Position numbers and translations under genes: made by a program. A stretch of DNA of 64,000 nt from the NCBI RefSeq assembly GCF_055900595.2, contig NZ_CM148325.1; one strand, 5' to 3'. Shown piece by piece: positions 3,631 through 9,830 of this stretch. Under the pieces are notes generated by a model. That model saw only the letters and a list, made by a program, of their open reading frames with translations, did not search any database and was not told the DNA's origin. The first letter of the stretch is position 1; each line of letters begins with the position of its first letter.

Positions 3631-5775
3631 TTAAAGCGCGCAGGAGACGCAGCCTTCAATTTCAGTACCTTCCAGCGCCATCTGACGCAGGCGGATGTAG
3701 TAGAGCGTTTTGATACCTTTACGCCAGGCATAAATCTGCGCTTTGTTGATATCGCGAGTGGTGGCGGTATCAGGGAAAAACAGCGTCAGCGACAGTCCCT
3801 GATCGACATGGCGAGTCGCTTCGGCGTAGGTGTCGATGATCTTTTCTGCGCCGATTTCGTAAGCGTCCTGATACAGCGCCAGATTCTCGTTAGTCATAAA
3901 TGGGGCAGGGTAGTAAACGCGTCCTGTTTTGCCTTCTTTGCGTATCTCTACTTTCGCCACAATCGGATGAATACTCGACGTGGCATGGTTGATATAAGAG
4001 ATGGAGCCGGTTGGCGGCACTGCCTGGAGATTCTGGTTGTAAATGCCATAGCGCATCACGTCGTCGCGCAGTTGCGCCCACATTTCGCGGGTAGGTAACG
4101 TGATACTGCTACGAGCAAACAACTCGCCAACTTTCGCCGTTTTCGGTTGCCAGTTACCTTGCAGATATTGGCTAAAATATTCACCGCTGGCATAGCGTGA
4201 CTGTTTGAACCCGGCGAAGGTTTCACCGCGTTCGCGCGCCAGCAACATTGAGGTACGCAGCGCGTGCCAGGTGATGGTGTAGAAATAGAGATTGGTGAAA
4301 TCCAGTGCTTCCGGCGAACCATAGGCGATGCCTTCTCGCGCCAGGTAACCGTGTAAATTCATCTGCCCCAGCCCGATGGCGTGTGAGGCGGCATTTCCGG
4401 CTTCGATGGACGGCACGCTGCGAATATGACTCATATCTGACACCGCAGTTAAACCGCGTACGGCGATCTCTACCGTGCGGGCAAAGTCGGGGGAATCCAT
4501 GGTGTGGGCAATATTCAACGAACCTAAATTGCAGGAAATATCATGGCCTGTGCGGGCATAGTCGAGATTCTCGTCATACTCTGAGGCGCTGTTAACCTGC
4601 AAAATTTCTGAGCAGAGATTGCTCATATTTATACGCCCGGCAATAGGGTTAGCACGGTTAACCGTGTCTTCATACATGATGTAGGGATAGCCGGATTCAA
4701 ACTGGATCTCCGCCAGCCGCTGGAAGAAATCACGGGCGTTGATGTATTTTTTGCGGATGCGTTCATCGGCAACCAGTTCGTCATAGTGTTCGCTGATGGC
4801 GATATCGGCAAACGGCTTGCCATAAACTCGCTCAACGTCATAGGGCGAAAACAGCGCCATCTTCGCATTCTCTTTTGCCAGATGGAAGGTGATATCCGGG
4901 ATAACCACGCCCAGCGACAGTGTTTTAATGCGGATTTTCTCGTCGGCATTTTCCCGCTTTGTATCGAGAAAACGCAGAATATCGGGATGATGAGCATGTA
5001 AATAGACTGCGCCAGCACCCTGACGAGCGCCGAGCTGGTTGGCATAAGAAAATGCGTCCTCCAGCATTTTCATCACCGGAATCACGCCAGAGGATTGATT
5101 TTCAATACGTTTAATTGGTGCGCCCGCTTCCCGCAGATTCGACAGCAAAAATGCCACGCCGCCGCCGCGTTTCGACAGTTGTAGTGCGGAATTTACTGCC
5201 CGGCCAATCGACTCCATATTGTCTTCAATACGCAGCAAAAAACAGGAAACCAGTTCGCCACGCTGCTGTTTACCGCAGTTGAGGAATGTCGGTGTTGCAG
5301 GCTGAAAGCGTCCTGACAGCATCTCATCGGTCAGTTGCGTCGCCAGTGTTTCATCGCCTTGTGCCAGCGTCAGCGCCACCATCGTGACTCGATCGGCAAA
5401 ATCTTCCAGATAACGCTTACCGTCGAATGTCTTCAACGTATAGCTGGTGTAAAACTTCCATGCTCCGAGGAATGTCTGAAAACGAAAACCGCTGGCGTGT
5501 GCGTGGGCAAACAGTGTAATGACAAAATCGCGAGAGTAGCGGTTGAGGACGTTTTCATCATAGTAACCTTCGTTGACCAGCCAGTTCAGGCGCTGCTGCT
5601 GGCTACTGAAGGTCACACTGTTCGGGCGTACATGCGTCGCCATAAAGGCGTCAACGGCCTGGCGATCTTTATCGAACTGAATGCGACCTGCGCTATCGTA
5701 AAGGTTAAGCATCGCATTCAGAGCGTGGTAATCCATCGTTTCCTGCGTCAGGCGTTCTGCGGTTGTCGTTGCCAA
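3631..5775 (-). CDS. nrdE: Class Ib ribonucleotide reductase alpha subunit NrdE
   Basis: 714-aa ORF with RNR large-subunit motifs and C-terminal redox cysteines (CVSCAL). Confidence 0.9.
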
Positions 5776-6158
5776 AATTCGGTTACTCCTTTACGAACGT
5801 TTTCGATATCGCTTTGCGTACCCATGAGTTCAAAGCGGTACAGCCACGGCACGCCGCATTTCCGGGCTATCACATCTCCGGCGCGGCCATACGCCTCACC
5901 AAAGTTGCGATTACCCGAAGCAATAACGCCGCGAAGCAACGCCCGGTTGTGCTCGTCGTTTAAAAAGCGAATTACCTGTCGTGGCACCGCGCCAGCCGTA
6001 CCGCCGCCGCCGTAAGAGGGCACGATCAGGATGTAAGGCTCGTCTACCTGAATCCGTTCCCGCTCATTGAGCGGGATGCGCACCGCGGGCAGTCCTAAAC
6101 GTTCGATAAAACGCTGCGTATTTTCGGAGCTGCTGGAAAAGTAGACGAGTTGGCTCAT
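5748..6158 (-). CDS. nrdI: Flavodoxin-like RNR stimulatory protein NrdI
   Basis: 136-aa ORF overlapping nrdE start, as in nrdHIEF. Confidence 0.85.
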
Positions 6159-6400
6159 GCACTGGCCGCGTGTGGCGCTGGATGCAGACGATTGATCATG
6201 TCCGGGCGGAAACCAGACCAGCTAAGATCGCCTGCAATCACTACCGGCAACTGACGAAAGCCCTGAGCACGTAACGCTTCCGCCGCTTCAGGAACGCGAT
6301 CGACATTAATCATTTCAAAATCAAAGCCCCGGTTTTCCATCGCCCGTTTGGTGGCGTGGCACTGAACGCAATCGTTACGAGTGTAAATAGTAATGCGCAT
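6155..6400 (-). CDS. nrdH: Glutaredoxin-like protein NrdH
   Basis: 81-aa ORF with CVQC redox motif ([18 protein letters not shown]). Confidence 0.9.
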
Positions 6401-6608
6401 GATTCGTATTTCCGTTTAAAATGAAGATACGGCGCGATGATACGCGTCGGGTTGTCTCTCTGTTGATACAGAGATACTAGATGTAGTTGAAAAAAGATTC
6501 AACCATACAAGATATGGGAATTTTAGATTGATTACACCACCGATGAATGGCTCAACGGGGTAGGGGATTTTGTGTTTTTTTGCCGGGTGATTGCCCGGCA
6601 TCAGGAAG

Positions 6609-7040
6609 TTACATCCGCATGGAAACGGCCAGGCGGTTAAAGCAATTCATCAGCCCGATGGCAAATGTTAAGTCGCTGATTTCTGCTGCGCTGAAATGCT
6701 CAAGCAAAGGCTGATAAACGTCGTCTTCCGCATGGGTTCGGGCAATATCGGTCACCGATTCCGCCCATGCCAGCGCCGCCCGCTCGCGATCGTCAAAATG
6801 ATGGCTTACGCGCCAGCCTGCCAGGGCATCCAGCTTATGCTGCGGCACACCGGATTTGCGTAATGCTTTGCTGTGCATCTCCAGACAAAATGCGCAACCA
6901 TTGATTTGCGAGACGCGCAAATAAACTAACTCCATCAGCGTAGTTTCCAGCGTGCTATTTTCCAGCGCCGTTTTGGCCTGCACCAGCGCGTTATATACCG
7001 TTGGGCTAAGTTCGTAGTAAGGCTGACGTAATGTAGTCAT
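6609..7040 (-). CDS. Carboxymuconolactone decarboxylase (AhpD-like) family protein
   Basis: 143-aa ORF with the CMD/AhpD-type motif NGCAFCLEMH. Confidence 0.7.
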   Translation of the reverse strand: MTTLRQPYYELSPTVYNALVQAKTALENSTLETTLMELVYLRVSQINGCAFCLEMHSKALRKSGVPQHKLDALAGWRVSHHFDDRERAALAWAESVTDIARTHAEDDVYQPLLEHFSAAEISDLTFAIGLMNCFNRLAVSMRM

Positions 7041-7127
7041 ACAGTTTCTCCTCTTATTAACGCCCGCAATGTAGCACTATAATGGACTGCTAAAGAGAGC
7101 CATAAATTACCTAAAAAAGCAGACCAT

Positions 7128-8462
7128 ATGCCGCGCTATCAGGATATCGCCCGTCAGTTAAAAACGGCTATTGAGCAAGGGGAACTGAAACCCGGCGCAA
7201 GGCTACCTTCAAGTCGTACCTGGTCGCAGGAACTGGGGATGTCTCGATCCACTGTCGAAAATGCGTATGCTGAGCTGGTGGCGCAAGGATGGCTGATCAG
7301 GCGGGGACAGGCTGGCACATTTGTCAGTGAGCAGATATATCCACAACAATCTACTGTACAAGTTGTGGCTTTTGCCGGTGAAAGTCAGCAACCGTTGCCA
7401 TTTCAAATGGGATTACCCGCACTCGATCTCTTTCCGCGAGAGCTGTGGGCGCGGGTGATGGGGCGTCGCCTTCGTACCCAGACGCGCTTTGATTTGGCTT
7501 TAGGCGATGTCTGCGGTGAGGCGGCGTTGCGTGAGGCAATAGTTGATTACTTACGCGTTTCACGTGGGATTGATTGTCAGCCAGAGCAGGTCTTTATCAC
7601 TCACGGTTATGCGGCCTCAATGGCTTTAATTCTGCACGCGCTGGCGAAACCGGGAAACGGGATGTGGATGGAAGATCCCGGCTTTCCACTGATTCGCCCG
7701 ATTGTCACTCGCCACGGTGTGGAAATTTTGCCTGTGCCGGTTGATGACAACGGACTGGATATCACAAGCGGAATACAAAATTATCCTGATGCGTGTTTTG
7801 CCCTGATAACACCAGCACACCAAAGCCCGCTGGGTGTGGCGCTCTCTTTAGCGCGCAGGCATCAGATACTGGAATGGGCAGAGCGTAGTCAGGCATGGAT
7901 TATTGAAGATGATTATGACAGTGAGTTTCGCTATCACGGTAAGCCGTTACCGGCGTTAAAAAGTCTCGATGCACCGCAGCGGGTAATTTATGCCGGAACA
8001 TTCAGCAAAGCACTATTTCCTGCATTGCGCTGTGCGTGGCTGGTGGTGCCGGTGAAGCAAATTGCACAATTCCGCCACCAGGCGTCACTGGCTCCATGTG
8101 CGGTACCTGTTCTATGGCAGAACACACTGGCAGACTTTCTTCGCGAGGGGCATTTCTGGCGGCATCTGAAGAAAATGCGTCAGCATTATGCTCAACGTCG
8201 GCAATGGATTGAGCAAGCGTTGACGCAGCAGGGATTTCAGGTTGTGCCGCAGAAAGGTGGTATCCAGATGGTGATCAGAATGATGGGCGATGATATTGCC
8301 CATGCGCGTAAAGCCAATGCTGCAGGCCTTGCGGTGCAGGCACTTAGCGACTGGCGTATCCGCTCAAGTGGGGAAGGTGGATTACTTCTCTCTTTTACCA
8401 ATATCGTTAACGAAGGTATGGCGCGACAGGTAGCACAACAATTACGTAAAGCCTTAAGCTAA
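7128..8462 (+). CDS. MocR/GabR-type regulator (GntR wHTH fused to PLP-dependent aminotransferase-like domain)
   Basis: 444-aa ORF; N-terminal GntR-like HTH, C-terminal fold-type-I aminotransferase region with candidate PLP lysine (TFSKAL). Confidence 0.75.
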   Translation: MPRYQDIARQLKTAIEQGELKPGARLPSSRTWSQELGMSRSTVENAYAELVAQGWLIRRGQAGTFVSEQIYPQQSTVQVVAFAGESQQPLPFQMGLPALDLFPRELWARVMGRRLRTQTRFDLALGDVCGEAALREAIVDYLRVSRGIDCQPEQVFITHGYAASMALILHALAKPGNGMWMEDPGFPLIRPIVTRHGVEILPVPVDDNGLDITSGIQNYPDACFALITPAHQSPLGVALSLARRHQILEWAERSQAWIIEDDYDSEFRYHGKPLPALKSLDAPQRVIYAGTFSKALFPALRCAWLVVPVKQIAQFRHQASLAPCAVPVLWQNTLADFLREGHFWRHLKKMRQHYAQRRQWIEQALTQQGFQVVPQKGGIQMVIRMMGDDIAHARKANAAGLAVQALSDWRIRSSGEGGLLLSFTNIVNEGMARQVAQQLRKALS

Positions 8463-8463
8463 A

Positions 8464-8490
8464 AAACCCCGAAATCAGGCTTCGGGGTCA
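8464..8490 (-). terminator. Rho-independent terminator downstream of ygaM
   Basis: Minus-strand hairpin CCCCGAA/TTCGGGG followed by a T-run. Confidence 0.55.
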
Positions 8491-8518
8491 AAGACGCGTA
8501 TTTATTATCATTGTTGCA

Positions 8519-8848
8519 CTACGATTTGCGCATGCTTAACAGTGCGCCGATAAAAATACCTACCGCAGCTGCTGTACCCACGCTACACCAGGGTCTTTCA
8601 CGAACAAAAGAATCCGCGCAGCCAACGGCATCGCGCGCGGCTTGCTGGACGCGAGTACGACCATGCATTCGCGCTCTGGTTTCTTTCAGTAGAGCCTGCG
8701 CTTTACTACGAGCGGCTTCGGCTTCCCCTTTGGCGTCGCTGCCCCAGGACTTCAATACAGATTCGAGACTGTCAGCCAATTGATTGACATCATTCTGGAT
8801 ATCCTGCACGCCATCATCGACGTCGTTGCGGTTCGGTCGGTTAAACAT
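8519..8848 (-). CDS. ygaM: DUF883/ElaB-family membrane-anchored protein YgaM
   Basis: ORF 8519..8860; start at MFNRPNRND gives 109 aa (alternative upstream start at 8860); C-terminal transmembrane anchor. Confidence 0.8.
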   Translation of the reverse strand: MFNRPNRNDVDDGVQDIQNDVNQLADSLESVLKSWGSDAKGEAEAARSKAQALLKETRARMHGRTRVQQAARDAVGCADSFVRERPWCSVGTAAAVGIFIGALLSMRKS

Positions 8849-8999
8849 ATGATCCCCCATTAGAATTCGATGTAATTTTTAGTGTAGACCATAATTTTCT
8901 TAACTGAGGTTCATCGCGGCTTTATGGACTTTTCTGAAAGCGTTGTGAATGCGCAATCAGGTAAGGTAGGCCCGCGGTTGATAATAACGAGGATCAAAT

Positions 9000-9344
9000 A
9001 TGTATTTACGACCAGACGAGGTGGCGCGCGTACTTGAAAAAGTCGGTTTTACTGTCGATGTGGTAACTCAGAAAGCTTATGGTTACCGCCGTGGGGAAAA
9101 TTATGTCTATGTTAATCGCGAAGCACGAATGGGACGTACCGCTCTGGTAATTCATCCAACATTAAAAGAACGCAGTTCAACACTGGCTGAACCCGCTTCC
9201 GATATTAAAACTTGCGATCATTACCAGCAATTTCCGCTCTATTTAGCGGGTGAACGTCATGAGCATTACGGTATCCCACATGGCTTTAGTTCGCGTGTTG
9301 CGCTTGAACGTTATTTGAATGGTTTATTTGGCGAAGCCAGTTAA
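9000..9344 (+). CDS. ygaC: Uncharacterized protein YgaC (DUF2002)
   Basis: 114-aa ORF in conserved position between ygaM and alaE. Confidence 0.8.
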
Positions 9345-9380
9345 AGACGCGACTGGCGATGCCAGTCGCGAAAGGAAGGG

Positions 9381-9830
9381 TCAGGCTTTTACCTGCTGGT
9401 AACGGCTGACTTTAAACAGTCGGCGGCAATAATCGAGGAAGTAGCCATAAACCGCCCCCATCAACATCGAAACAACGATGTTTGAACTGACCGCCGCCAT
9501 AATCTGATGCCAGTCTGCGCCCACCACTAACAAGATCGCCACATACACCGGTGACTGGAACGTCACATACGCCAGGATATCCGCCAGATTTTTTACCCAG
9601 CCCGACGGACTAACTTTGCGTGCCGCGCGCATAAACAGATCGCGGTACATACCGTATGGCCATGCAATTAAGATGTTCACCGGAATCGCTACCAATCTGG
9701 AATAAAGAGACTGTTCGAAGCTCATTCCGGAGAGGAAAACTTCAATACACATGTTCACGACAGAACAGTAAACAACCATCGCGAACGTATCTGCAACTGC
9801 ATGACGCAAGCGTGACTGCGGTGAGAACAT
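9381..9830 (-). CDS. alaE: L-alanine exporter AlaE
   Basis: 149-aa small membrane protein at the ygaW/alaE position upstream of stpA. Confidence 0.8.

What the first reader, a model, noticed from the sequence alone, without database searches (positions are those of the whole stretch)
6609..8462. Divergent MocR-type regulator / AhpD-like gene pair inserted between nrdH and ygaM
A 444-aa GntR-HTH/aminotransferase-fold (MocR/GabR-like) regulator is divergently transcribed from a 143-aa carboxymuconolactone-decarboxylase/AhpD-family gene across an 87-bp shared intergenic region (7041..7127). This is the typical layout of a MocR regulator with its target. From memory, ygaM and nrdH are adjacent in K-12 with nothing between them, so this about 1.9 kb looks like a strain-variable module. 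Neither the effector nor the AhpD-like substrate is evident.
Basis: partly seen in the sequence, partly recalled or inferred. Interest (0 to 1): 0.45.

Follow-up and report, generated by a model that had tools for sequence, protein, structure and literature searches.

The report
Ancestral MocR regulator/AhpD-like gene pair
This is an ordinary, already catalogued two-gene unit (a PLP-type MocR regulator next to the AhpD-like redox enzyme gene it most likely controls) that is ancestral at this site in enteric bacteria and was deleted in E. coli K-12, not inserted in this strain.

Summary
A 143-aa CMD/AhpD-family gene (6609..7040, -) and a 444-aa MocR-type regulator gene (7128..8462, +) diverge across an 87-bp spacer between nrdH and ygaM. 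K-12 lacks both genes. 1276 of 5426 complete E. coli genomes carry them, always at this chromosomal site.

The word "inserted" is wrong. The order nrdI-nrdH-CMD-MocR-ygaM-ygaC is shared with E. albertii, Citrobacter, Pseudocitrobacter, Cedecea, Pluralibacter, Pseudescherichia and Rahnella. Published tables list the Salmonella LT2 orthologue (STM2803). G+C is normal and both genes are under purifying selection. K-12 therefore carries a clean deletion of about 1.87 kb.

The spacer holds a conserved three-box operator: ATGGaCTG (inverted), AGAGCCAT and CAGACCAT (direct), at fixed spacing with an A6 tract. It occurs in 26 of 33 related divergent pairs, never in shuffles, and nowhere else in the window. 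The spacer is 87/87 identical between E. coli alleles whose flanking genes have dS 0.27-0.41.

Suvorova & Rodionov (2016) already predicted this regulog (Spro_3719/STM2803 controlling COG2128). The effector and the substrate remain unknown, and the RefSeq label "PdxR" is not supported by context. Interest is low.

The parts
6582..6599 (-). GC-rich hairpin (GCCGGG-TGATTG-CCCGGC) 10 nt after the CMD stop codon. It is the probable end of the CMD transcript. In Escherichia it lacks a U-run.
   Evidence: Read from the sequence. A hairpin at the same place, with different sequence, occurs in all genera examined, and it is a canonical hairpin plus T-run terminator in Pseudocitrobacter and Rahnella. 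The consensus scan did not call it a terminator.
6609..7040 (-). CMD/AhpD-like gene, 143 aa. It has the Cys49-x-x-Cys52-x-x-x-His56 motif and Glu37.
   Evidence: ORF. Pfam CMD 3.6e-20. TIGR00778 ahpD_dom scores 52.5 bits against a cut-off of 27.8. The best solved relatives are P. aeruginosa PA0269 (2ijc/2o4d, E 1e-31) and Atu0492. dN/dS is 0.05-0.08.
7048..7053 (-). Ribosome-binding site of the CMD gene (GAGGAG on the - strand).
   Evidence: These columns are nearly invariant (CTCCTC on the + strand) in the 20-sequence alignment A1.
7068..7073 (-). Candidate -10 element of the CMD promoter (TACATT on the - strand). No -35 match is present. This is inferred.
   Evidence: The T, A and final T of the TAnnnT pattern are invariant columns (A31, T35, A36 in A1). 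The consensus scan calls no promoter in the spacer.
7078..7083 (+). Candidate -10 element of the mocR promoter (TATAAT), overlapping box 1. This is inferred.
   Evidence: TAT(A/G)AT is conserved in 19 of 20 sequences of A1, and the remaining sequence has TAGTAT. The consensus scan does not call it because the -35 match is weak.
7082..7089 (+). Operator box 1, ATGGACTG. It is the inverted copy of box 3.
   Evidence: Invariant or nearly invariant columns in A1. Part of the three-box pattern found in 26 of 33 related spacers and 0 shuffles.
7096..7103 (+). Operator box 2, AGAGCCAT. It is a direct repeat of box 3, with starts 24 bp apart.
7113..7118 (+). Conserved A6 tract between boxes 2 and 3. 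It may contribute intrinsic DNA bending.
   Evidence: Columns A76-A81 are invariant or nearly so in A1. An A/T-rich tract guides DNA bending in the PdxR operator (PMC10450172). The role here is inferred.
7120..7127 (+). Operator box 3, CAGACCAT. It abuts the mocR start codon.
   Evidence: The full 46-bp pattern 7082..7127 is unique in the 64-kb window even with 3 mismatches allowed, with 0 matches expected by chance.
7128..8462 (+). MocR-type regulator gene, 444 aa. It has a GntR winged helix-turn-helix (aa 4-66), a short linker, and an aminotransferase-like domain (about aa 99-441). The PLP lysine is K294 (codon 8007..8009).
   Evidence: The best solved relatives are B. clausii PdxR 7pq9 (2e-63) and B. 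subtilis GabR 4n0b (2e-56). K294, R301 and the DDY motif are invariant or nearly so in 32 orthologues. dN/dS is 0.08-0.12.
8465..8489 (-). ygaM terminator hairpin. It starts 3 nt after the mocR stop codon and is retained in K-12. The right-hand deletion breakpoint lies just before it.
   Evidence: Terminator scan. K-12 versus window alignments.

Best explanation
This is a self-contained, chromosomally ancestral regulator/target unit.

Shown:
- The two genes have the families stated.
- Both are intact and under purifying selection.
- Their shared 87-bp spacer carries a strongly conserved 46-bp three-box site: box 1 inverted, boxes 2 and 3 direct, gaps fixed at 6 and 16 nt, and an A6 tract.
- The unit sits between nrdH and ygaM across Enterobacteriaceae.
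- About three quarters of E. coli, including K-12, carry one shared deletion of about 1.87 kb that removes just the two genes.

Inferred:
- A MocR dimer with PLP bound at K294 occupies the boxes.
- Box 1 overlaps the mocR -10 element, which would give autorepression.
- Boxes 2 and 3 lie at about -39 and -63 of a CMD promoter that has a -10 but no -35.
- The regulator therefore most likely activates the CMD gene when an effector changes which pair of boxes it uses (outer inverted pair versus direct pair), as shown for PdxR and GabR.
- Activation rather than repression is only slightly favoured, about 55:45.
- The CMD protein is a PA0269-type CxxC thiol oxidoreductase or weak peroxidase.
- In more distant relatives the same regulator faces a GNAT, azoreductase-like and CMD operon, so the theme is detoxification of an oxidant or electrophile.
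- The effector is not GABA-like, because both carboxylate-binding arginines of GabR are replaced.
For: Families.

E. coli distribution and empty site. All 21 sampled module-less genomes show the same 245-247-bp junction.

Synteny in at least 8 other genera.

Published regulog 'Spro_3719 - Enterobacteriales' (STM2803, CKO_04020, Klebsiella, Serratia) with COG2128 as the only target, and the parallel PA0268 group: PMC5320631 supplement.

Operator:
- Alignment A1 shows invariant boxes.
- The three-box pattern is found in 26 of 33 divergent pairs out to Pseudomonas and Burkholderiales. Shuffles gave 0 hits, and 588 kb of the same loci gave 0 hits.
- The pattern is unique in the window.

Constraint:
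- The spacer is 87/87 identical between the window and O157:H7 alleles.
- CMD dS is 0.27 and MocR dS is 0.41 between the same alleles.
- dN/dS is 0.05-0.12.

PLP site conserved, with GabR R207 and R430 replaced by L188 and D408.

Normal G+C.

GNAT, azoreductase-like and CMD operons in relatives.

PA0269 has weak cysteine-dependent peroxidase activity: PMC3141380.

A layout of two direct boxes plus one inverted box is the commonest MocR motif (PMC5320631). It is also the layout of the 48-bp PdxR operator (PMC10450172).
Against: - There is no experimental evidence for binding, for the direction of regulation, for the effector or for the substrate in any orthologue.
- The consensus promoter scan calls nothing in the spacer, so both promoters are inferred from conservation alone.
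- Only this 64-kb window and the flanks of the related loci were scanned for further operators, so additional targets elsewhere in the genome are not excluded.
- The boxes are too short to be picked up as repeats within the single sequence. Their reality rests on cross-species conservation.
Confidence: 0.75

Rival explanations
1. The 1.9-kb pair is a horizontally acquired insertion into an ancestrally adjacent nrdH-ygaM junction.
For: K-12 and about 76% of complete E. coli genomes lack it. E. coli alleles of the pair are unusually divergent, with 91% nucleotide identity and MocR dS 0.41. That divergence could reflect imports from other Escherichia lineages by homologous recombination.
Against: The same position and orientation occur in E. 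albertii, Citrobacter, Pseudocitrobacter, Cedecea, Pluralibacter, Pseudescherichia and Rahnella, and in Salmonella according to published tables. G+C is normal. There are no direct repeats, integrase, IS or tRNA at the borders. All matches are chromosomal and none is on a plasmid. The flanking genes (nrdE at 94%) are also deeply divergent, so the divergence is regional and not specific to the module.
Confidence: 0.07
2. The regulator is PdxR, as newer RefSeq annotation calls it. On this reading it is a PLP-responsive regulator of vitamin B6 synthesis or salvage, and the AhpD-like neighbour is incidental.
For: NCBIfam NF052282 'PdxR' (equivalog) scores 405.9 bits against a cut-off of 320. The best solved relative is B. 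clausii PdxR. Like PdxR, the protein lacks GabR's carboxylate-binding arginines. The operator layout resembles that of PdxR. PLP itself could therefore be the only ligand.
Against: No pdxST or salvage gene is adjacent. The conserved partner across 33 loci is a CMD gene. The only operator copy in the window lies in the spacer shared with the CMD gene. Suvorova & Rodionov place STM2803 in the group 'Spro_3719', apart from all their PdxR groups, with COG2128 as its target. From established knowledge, E. coli makes PLP by the PdxA/PdxJ route, and K-12 does so without this regulator.
Confidence: 0.1
3. The regulator's main targets lie elsewhere in the genome, and the divergent CMD gene is only one minor member of the regulon.
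For: Some related MocR regulogs have several targets, such as AcpD, GNAT, Bcp and DsbD-like genes. Only 64 kb of this genome could be scanned.
Against: The published genome-wide reconstruction lists COG2128 as the sole target for every enterobacterial member. No second operator was found in the window or in 588 kb of related loci. The regulator and the CMD gene are lost together in K-12.
Confidence: 0.12
4. The AhpD-like gene works with the downstream class Ib ribonucleotide reductase operon nrdHIEF, either by transcriptional read-through or as a redox partner of the glutaredoxin-like NrdH.
For: The gene is on the same strand as nrdH and 208 bp upstream of it. This adjacency is conserved across Enterobacteriaceae. 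The Escherichia hairpin after the CMD stop has no U-run.
Against: A hairpin follows the CMD stop in every genus and is a canonical terminator in some. Outside Enterobacterales the CMD-MocR pair is not next to nrd genes. K-12 runs nrdHIEF without it. The NrdR-box and promoter region of nrdH is intact in both haplotypes.
Confidence: 0.05

Closest known systems
MocR regulog 'Spro_3719 - Enterobacteriales' (Salmonella LT2 STM2803, C. koseri CKO_04020, Klebsiella, Serratia Spro_3719) of Suvorova & Rodionov 2016, PMC5320631
   Same: Same orthologous regulator and same predicted single target (COG2128, the AhpD/CMD family). The chromosomal neighbourhood is the same in Salmonella (STM2803/STM2804 lie near stpA). 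The operator is of the repeated-box type.
   Different: No E. coli member was listed there, because only K-12, which lacks the genes, was in their genome set. That work is in silico only. I did not see the motif they derived, so agreement with the three boxes found here could not be checked.
PA0268/PA0269 of Pseudomonas aeruginosa (PA0269 structures 2IJC and 2O4D; PMC3141380)
   Same: PA0269 is the closest solved relative of the CMD protein (E 1e-31, full length, same CxxC...H motif). PA0268 is a MocR-type regulator predicted to control it.
   Different: It belongs to a different orthologous group of regulators, at about 45-49% identity. Its regulon also includes a cupin (COG1917). Only weak H2O2 reduction has been shown for PA0269, and its physiological substrate is unknown.
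PdxR of Bacillus clausii (7PQ9; cryo-EM complexes 7ZLA, 7ZN5, 7ZPA, 7ZTH; PMC10450172)
   Same: Same MocR architecture, and the best solved relative (2e-63). It is divergently transcribed from its target. Its operator is about 48 bp, with two direct motifs and one inverted motif and an A/T tract, compared with 46 bp here. The PLP lysine is conserved.
   Different: Its target is pdxST (PLP synthase), whereas the target here is an AhpD-like gene. Identity is only about 30-35%. The protein here is 34 aa shorter, with a shorter linker. [quoted passage not shown]
GabR of Bacillus subtilis (4N0B)
   Same: It is an autorepressor and activator bound in a divergent spacer, overlapping its own promoter and lying upstream of the target promoter. 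Its PLP lysine K312 aligns with K294 here.
   Different: GabR's GABA-carboxylate ligands R207 and R430 correspond to L188 and D408 here. There is no gabTD neighbour. GabR uses two direct repeats 34 bp apart.
Mycobacterium tuberculosis AhpD
   Same: It shares the CMD/AhpD fold domain and the CxxC, His and Glu proton-relay residues (PMC3141380).
   Different: The match to TIGR00777 'ahpD' is far below its cut-off (30 bits against 192). No adjacent ahpC is present. The protein here is a small single-domain form of the PA0269 type.

Membership tests
MocR subfamily of GntR transcription factors | N-terminal GntR-type winged helix-turn-helix domain | tested here: met
   Pfam GntR PF00392, aa 4-66, E 1.5e-16.
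MocR subfamily of GntR transcription factors | C-terminal fold-type I aminotransferase-like domain | tested here: met
   Pfam Aminotran_1_2, aa 126-388, E 5.8e-26. Full-length alignment to PdxR and GabR structures.
MocR subfamily of GntR transcription factors | Conserved PLP-binding lysine and the phosphate- and pyridine-binding residues | tested here: met
   K294 aligns with GabR K312 and R301 with GabR R319, and the IIEDDYDSEF motif is identical. K294 and the aligned D-Y-D residues are invariant in 32 orthologues; R301 is conserved in 31 of 32 (Q in one).
MocR subfamily of GntR transcription factors | Operator of two to four direct and/or inverted boxes in its own upstream region | tested here: met
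   Three conserved boxes at 7082..7127.
MocR subfamily of GntR transcription factors | PLP binding and ligand-dependent DNA binding | not testable with these tools
   This needs purified protein (spectroscopy, EMSA).
PdxR (MocR-like vitamin B6 regulator) | Score above the curated cut-off of the NCBIfam PdxR equivalog model | tested here: met
   NF052282 scores 405.9 bits against a cut-off of 320.
PdxR (MocR-like vitamin B6 regulator) | Adjacent to, and controlling, pdxST or B6 salvage genes | tested here: not met
   The divergent neighbour is a CMD gene in the window and in 33 related loci. Published regulon tables place the orthologues outside all PdxR groups.
GabR (GABA-responsive MocR) | Arginines that bind the effector's carboxylate (R207, R430), and a gabT/gabD neighbour | tested here: not met
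   The aligned residues are L188 and D408. No gabTD genes are nearby.
AhpD-like / CMD family (PF02627) | CMD domain | tested here: met
   Pfam CMD, aa 13-94, E 3.6e-20. TIGR00778 ahpD_dom scores 52.5 bits against a cut-off of 27.8.
AhpD-like / CMD family (PF02627) | Catalytic CxxC with the His and Glu of the proton relay | tested here: met
   C49-A-F-C52-L-E-M-H56 and E37 are read from the translation. They align with the PA0269 active site (PMC3141380).
AhpD-like / CMD family (PF02627) | Thiol-dependent peroxidase or disulfide-reductase activity with a defined partner (AhpC, lipoamide) | not testable with these tools
   No ahpC is adjacent. Only weak activity is reported for the relative PA0269.
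gamma-Carboxymuconolactone decarboxylase (PcaC) | A match to a PcaC equivalog model, and a pca (beta-ketoadipate) gene context | tested here: not met
   No PcaC model is among the NCBIfam hits. The neighbours are nrdH and ygaM.
Horizontally acquired genomic islet | Atypical composition, mobility genes or flanking repeats, and absence from the same site in sister taxa | tested here: not met
   G+C is 52.5%, like the neighbouring genes. There are no repeats or mobility genes. The pair is present at the same site in at least 8 other genera.

The most novel reading that the evidence does not exclude
The regulator may not sense a metabolite in the usual MocR way. It may instead sense a PLP-reactive oxidant or electrophile through chemical modification of its bound PLP, as proposed for cyanide and MpaR in P. 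aeruginosa. It would then switch on a thiol-based detoxifying enzyme. Because the unit is present in O157:H7 and about a quarter of E. coli but deleted in K-12, it would be a strain-specific stress defence that model-strain work has missed.
Probability: 0.12. Interest if true: 0.5.

Novelty: already known. Interest (0 to 1): 0.2.

Why it matters
The practical value is small.

- **Direction of the event.** The finding corrects a natural misreading. Absence from K-12 reflects a K-12-lineage deletion of an ancestral enterobacterial unit, not an acquisition by this strain.
- **Experimental handle.** It gives a concrete 46-bp operator (7082..7127) with base-level conservation, which anyone wishing to characterise this uncharacterised MocR/AhpD-like pair could test directly.
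- **Annotation.** The RefSeq product name 'PdxR' on this gene in E. coli is probably an over-transfer.
- **Open biology.** What the regulator senses, and what the CxxC enzyme reduces, is still unknown for the whole orthologous group, including the Salmonella and O157:H7 copies.

Tried and rejected
- **Within-sequence repeat search.** A search of the spacer found only a chance 7-mer and the CATATG palindrome. The boxes are too short for this, and cross-species footprinting was needed.
- **Consensus promoter and terminator scan.** The scan called no promoter in the spacer and no terminator after the CMD gene. The promoters are therefore inferred from conservation only.
- **Rfam search.** A search of 6100..9000 at E up to 1 gave nothing.
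- **Full-text literature searches.** Searches for MocR with carboxymuconolactone decarboxylase, and for MocR with AhpD, gave no paper. The link was found only in the supplementary tables of PMC5320631.
- **Read-through into nrdHIEF.** I considered this and set it aside, because a hairpin follows the CMD stop in every genus.
- **NrdR box.** I considered that K-12 had lost or altered an NrdR box at the left breakpoint. By eye, the box appears retained in both haplotypes with small differences in the sequences printed.
- **Balancing selection.** The deep divergence between E. coli alleles is not specific to the module. nrdE is also only about 94% identical between strains.
- **Not attempted.** I did not predict structures, because close crystal structures exist for both proteins. 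I did not run a whole-genome operator scan of a module-bearing strain, because this is not feasible with 50-kb fetches.
Full report
**Observation**

An ORF at 6609..7040 on the minus strand encodes 143 aa. An ORF at 7128..8462 on the plus strand encodes 444 aa. They are separated by 87 bp, 7041..7127.

The small protein has one Pfam CMD domain (PF02627, 3.6e-20). It also passes the NCBIfam AhpD core-domain model (TIGR00778, 52.5 bits against a cut-off of 27.8). The large protein has a GntR helix-turn-helix domain (aa 4-66) and a class I/II aminotransferase domain, which is the MocR architecture.

The neighbours are nrdIH on one side and ygaM-ygaC-alaE-stpA on the other.

**Strain variability**

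A megablast of 6401..8518 against 5426 complete E. coli genomes found at least 80% of the segment in 1276 genomes. It was always chromosomal and always present once. Nearly all other genomes matched only the flanks, which are 8% of the query.

In K-12 MG1655, nrdH and ygaM are 247 bp apart with nothing annotated between them. Every sampled module-less genome (rows H9-H29) shows the same 245-247-bp span. This points to one shared empty-site allele.

**Insertion or deletion**

Aligning the K-12 empty site to the window shows near-identity up to about 6515. Recognisable homology continues to about 6575-6600. Identity resumes at about 8463, just before the ygaM terminator hairpin. The difference is therefore a clean indel of about 1.87 kb that removes the two ORFs and almost nothing else. 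It has no flanking direct repeats, IS remnants, integrase or tRNA.

A scan of one genome per species found the regulator at 62-91% identity with the same neighbours, nrdI-nrdH-CMD-MocR-ygaM-ygaC. The species were Escherichia albertii, several Citrobacter, Pseudocitrobacter, Pseudescherichia vulneris, Cedecea, Pluralibacter gergoviae and several strains labelled Enterobacter. Rahnella also has the arrangement, at 47% identity.

Published tables add Salmonella LT2. STM2803 is the regulator (PMC5320631 supplement). STM2804 is described as a gene of unknown function about 5 kb from stpA (PMC3723669).

G+C of both genes is 52.5%, like their neighbours. Both genes are under purifying selection, with dN/dS of 0.05-0.12 against O157:H7, E. 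albertii and Citrobacter alleles.

The unit is therefore ancestral at this site, and K-12-like strains carry a deletion. The rest of the description is.

**The operator**

A repeat search within the single sequence finds nothing useful. An alignment of the spacer from 20 Enterobacteriaceae (A1) shows sharply conserved blocks:

| Element | Sequence | Coordinates |
|---|---|---|
| CMD ribosome-binding site | CTCCTC on the + strand | 7048..7053 |
| Promoter-like block | TAgCACTATaAT | 7072..7083 |
| Box 1 (inverted) | ATGGaCTG | 7082..7089 |
| Box 2 (direct) | AGAGCCAT | 7096..7103 |
| A6 tract | AAAAAA | 7113..7118 |
| Box 3 (direct) | CAGACCAT | 7120..7127 |

Box 1 is the reverse complement of box 3, and box 2 is a direct copy of box 3. 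Box 3 abuts the mocR start codon. The gaps are fixed at 6 and 16 nt.

A loose pattern for the three boxes at this spacing matches 26 of 33 spacers between divergent CMD and MocR genes. The matches include relatives in Massilia, Budvicia, Hafnia, Derxia, Terasakiispira, Burkholderia and Herminiimonas. It matched 0 times in 200 shuffled sets and 0 times in the other 588 kb of the same loci. The exact enterobacterial pattern is unique in the 64-kb window even with three mismatches allowed, where 0 matches are expected.

The whole spacer is 87/87 identical between the window and the O157:H7 allele. The flanking CMD and MocR genes of those two alleles differ at dS 0.27 and 0.41. At those rates, some two dozen changes would be expected in a neutral spacer.

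**Comparison with known MocR operators**

Suvorova & Rodionov report that two direct boxes plus one inverted box is the commonest MocR motif structure, found in 32% of regulons. The B. clausii PdxR operator is a 48-bp segment with two direct motifs, one inverted motif and an A/T-rich tract that guides DNA bending. Holo-PdxR clamps the outer inverted pair, and the apo form also uses the direct pair (PMC10450172).

The site found here is 46 bp. It has an outer inverted pair (boxes 1 and 3), an inner direct box (box 2) and a conserved A6 tract, so it has the same layout.

**Promoters (inferred)**

TAT(A/G)AT at 7078..7083 is conserved on the plus strand and overlaps box 1. This suggests the mocR -10 element and hence autorepression.

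On the minus strand, the invariant T, A and T of TACATT (7068..7073) fit a -10 element for the CMD gene. The position 17 bp upstream of it has no -35 match. Instead, box 2 lies at about -39 and box 3 at about -63.

This is the geometry of an activator-dependent promoter, as with GabR at gabT. The consensus scan calls no promoter in the spacer. That agrees with weak -35 elements, but it also means the promoters are not independently supported. I rate activation against repression of the CMD gene at about 55:45.

**The sensor domain**

In the alignment to GabR, K294 matches the Schiff-base lysine K312 and R301 matches R319, and the IIEDDYDSEF motif is identical. K294 and the aligned D-Y-D residues are invariant in 32 orthologues; R301 is Q in one of them. 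PLP binding is therefore likely.

GabR's two effector-carboxylate arginines, R207 and R430, correspond to L188 and D408 and are variable among orthologues. A GABA-like ligand bound in the GabR manner is therefore unlikely. PdxR also lacks these arginines.

**The enzyme**

The CMD protein has C49-x-x-C52-x-x-x-H56 and E37, which is the AhpD proton-relay set. Its closest solved relatives are P. aeruginosa PA0269 (2IJC/2O4D, E 1e-31 over the full length) and Atu0492. PA0269 forms a hexameric ring and shows weak H2O2 reduction that is blocked by thiol alkylation (PMC3141380). No PcaC (true decarboxylase) model matched.

In Pseudomonas, Azoarcus, Pectobacterium and a betaproteobacterial MAG, related MocR genes face an operon that ends in a CMD gene. 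Upstream of it lie a GNAT acetyltransferase gene, a flavodoxin-fold azoreductase-like gene, or both. This matches the COG1182/PF00583/COG2128 regulons in the published tables. It points to a redox or electrophile-detoxification role. Neither the substrate nor the effector can be named from sequence.

**What is already known**

The pairing is catalogued. PMC5320631 lists COG2128 (AhpD/CMD) as a MocR-regulated gene 53 times. It defines the regulog 'Spro_3719 - Enterobacteriales', which contains STM2803, CKO_04020, a Klebsiella gene, Ent638_0497, ECA2654 and Spro_3719. COG2128 is listed as the regulated gene for all of these; a second Erwinia member of the regulog, ECA3744, has PF00583 (GNAT) instead. 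A parallel PA0268 group covers PA0269.

E. coli was represented there only by K-12, which lacks the genes. RefSeq annotates the E. coli copies as 'carboxymuconolactone decarboxylase family protein' and 'PLP-dependent aminotransferase family protein'. In newer records the regulator is named 'pdxR'.

The PdxR name follows from an NCBIfam equivalog hit above its cut-off (405.9 against 320). It is contradicted by gene context and by the published grouping. I regard it as an over-transfer of a name, although PLP alone acting as the ligand is not excluded.

**Verdict**

The feature is real and correctly described, but it is ordinary. It is an orthologue of an already predicted MocR/AhpD-like regulog. 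It is ancestral in Enterobacteriaceae and was lost by deletion in most E. coli.

What this analysis adds is the direction of the event, the breakpoints, a base-resolution operator with strong comparative support, and a caution about the PdxR label. Interest is 0.2.

Noticed in passing
L082 5063-5211 (E. coli O157:H7 strain 9234, between the mocR stop and ygaM): The O157:H7 haplotype has about 93 extra bases here. They include a REP-like palindromic unit (CCCCTGATGCGCTATGTTTTTCAGGCCTGTAGGCGGACAAGGCG) that is absent from the window and from K-12.
   Followed up: no
L083 2229-2230 (E. coli strain 8178); equivalent to window 7131..7717: A 587-bp deletion removes mocR codons 2-197, and RefSeq annotates the gene as a pseudogene. 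The CMD gene and boxes 1-3 remain. This strain is a natural regulator-null variant and a sign of ongoing decay of the unit in some lineages.
   Followed up: partly
window 3631..9830 compared with L001, L082, L084, L019: The whole nrdE-ygaM region carries deeply divergent alleles within E. coli. nrdE is only 94.4% identical to K-12. mocR is 89.7% identical between the window and O157:H7 (dS 0.41). The adjacent nrdI, nrdH and ygaC have dS 0.07-0.14. Only 15 of 5421 genomes are at least 99% identical to the window across 6401..8518.
   Followed up: partly
window 7128..8462; RefSeq records NZ_CM129039.1 and NZ_CM143909.1: Newer PGAP annotation names this gene pdxR ('MocR-like pyridoxine biosynthesis transcription factor') because of NCBIfam NF052282. 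The conserved neighbour and predicted target is an AhpD-like gene, not pdxST, so the name is probably over-transferred.
   Followed up: yes
L021 2352-3874, L023, L038, L074 (Pseudomonas, Pectobacterium, Azoarcus, Mixta): In more distant relatives the MocR gene faces a longer operon of a GNAT acetyltransferase, a flavodoxin-fold azoreductase-like protein and the CMD protein. Enterobacteriaceae keep only the CMD gene.
   Followed up: partly
window 6582..6599 and the equivalent positions in L003-L040: A hairpin follows the CMD stop codon in every genus. Its sequence differs but pairing is preserved (loop and stem changes among the window, O157 and E. albertii). In Escherichia it is followed by an A-run rather than a U-run, so termination before the nrdH promoter may be incomplete.
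   Followed up: partly
L004, L005, L006 (Citrobacter), about 5333-5460: No ygaM homologue was detected by tblastn between mocR and ygaC in three Citrobacter species, although ygaM is present in the other genera. This looks like a separate local gene loss at the same locus.
   Followed up: no
window 8519..8860: The mechanical ORF list gives ygaM as 113 aa, starting at the ATG at 8860. RefSeq annotates the gene as 330 bp including the stop codon, starting at the internal ATG at 8848.
   Followed up: no
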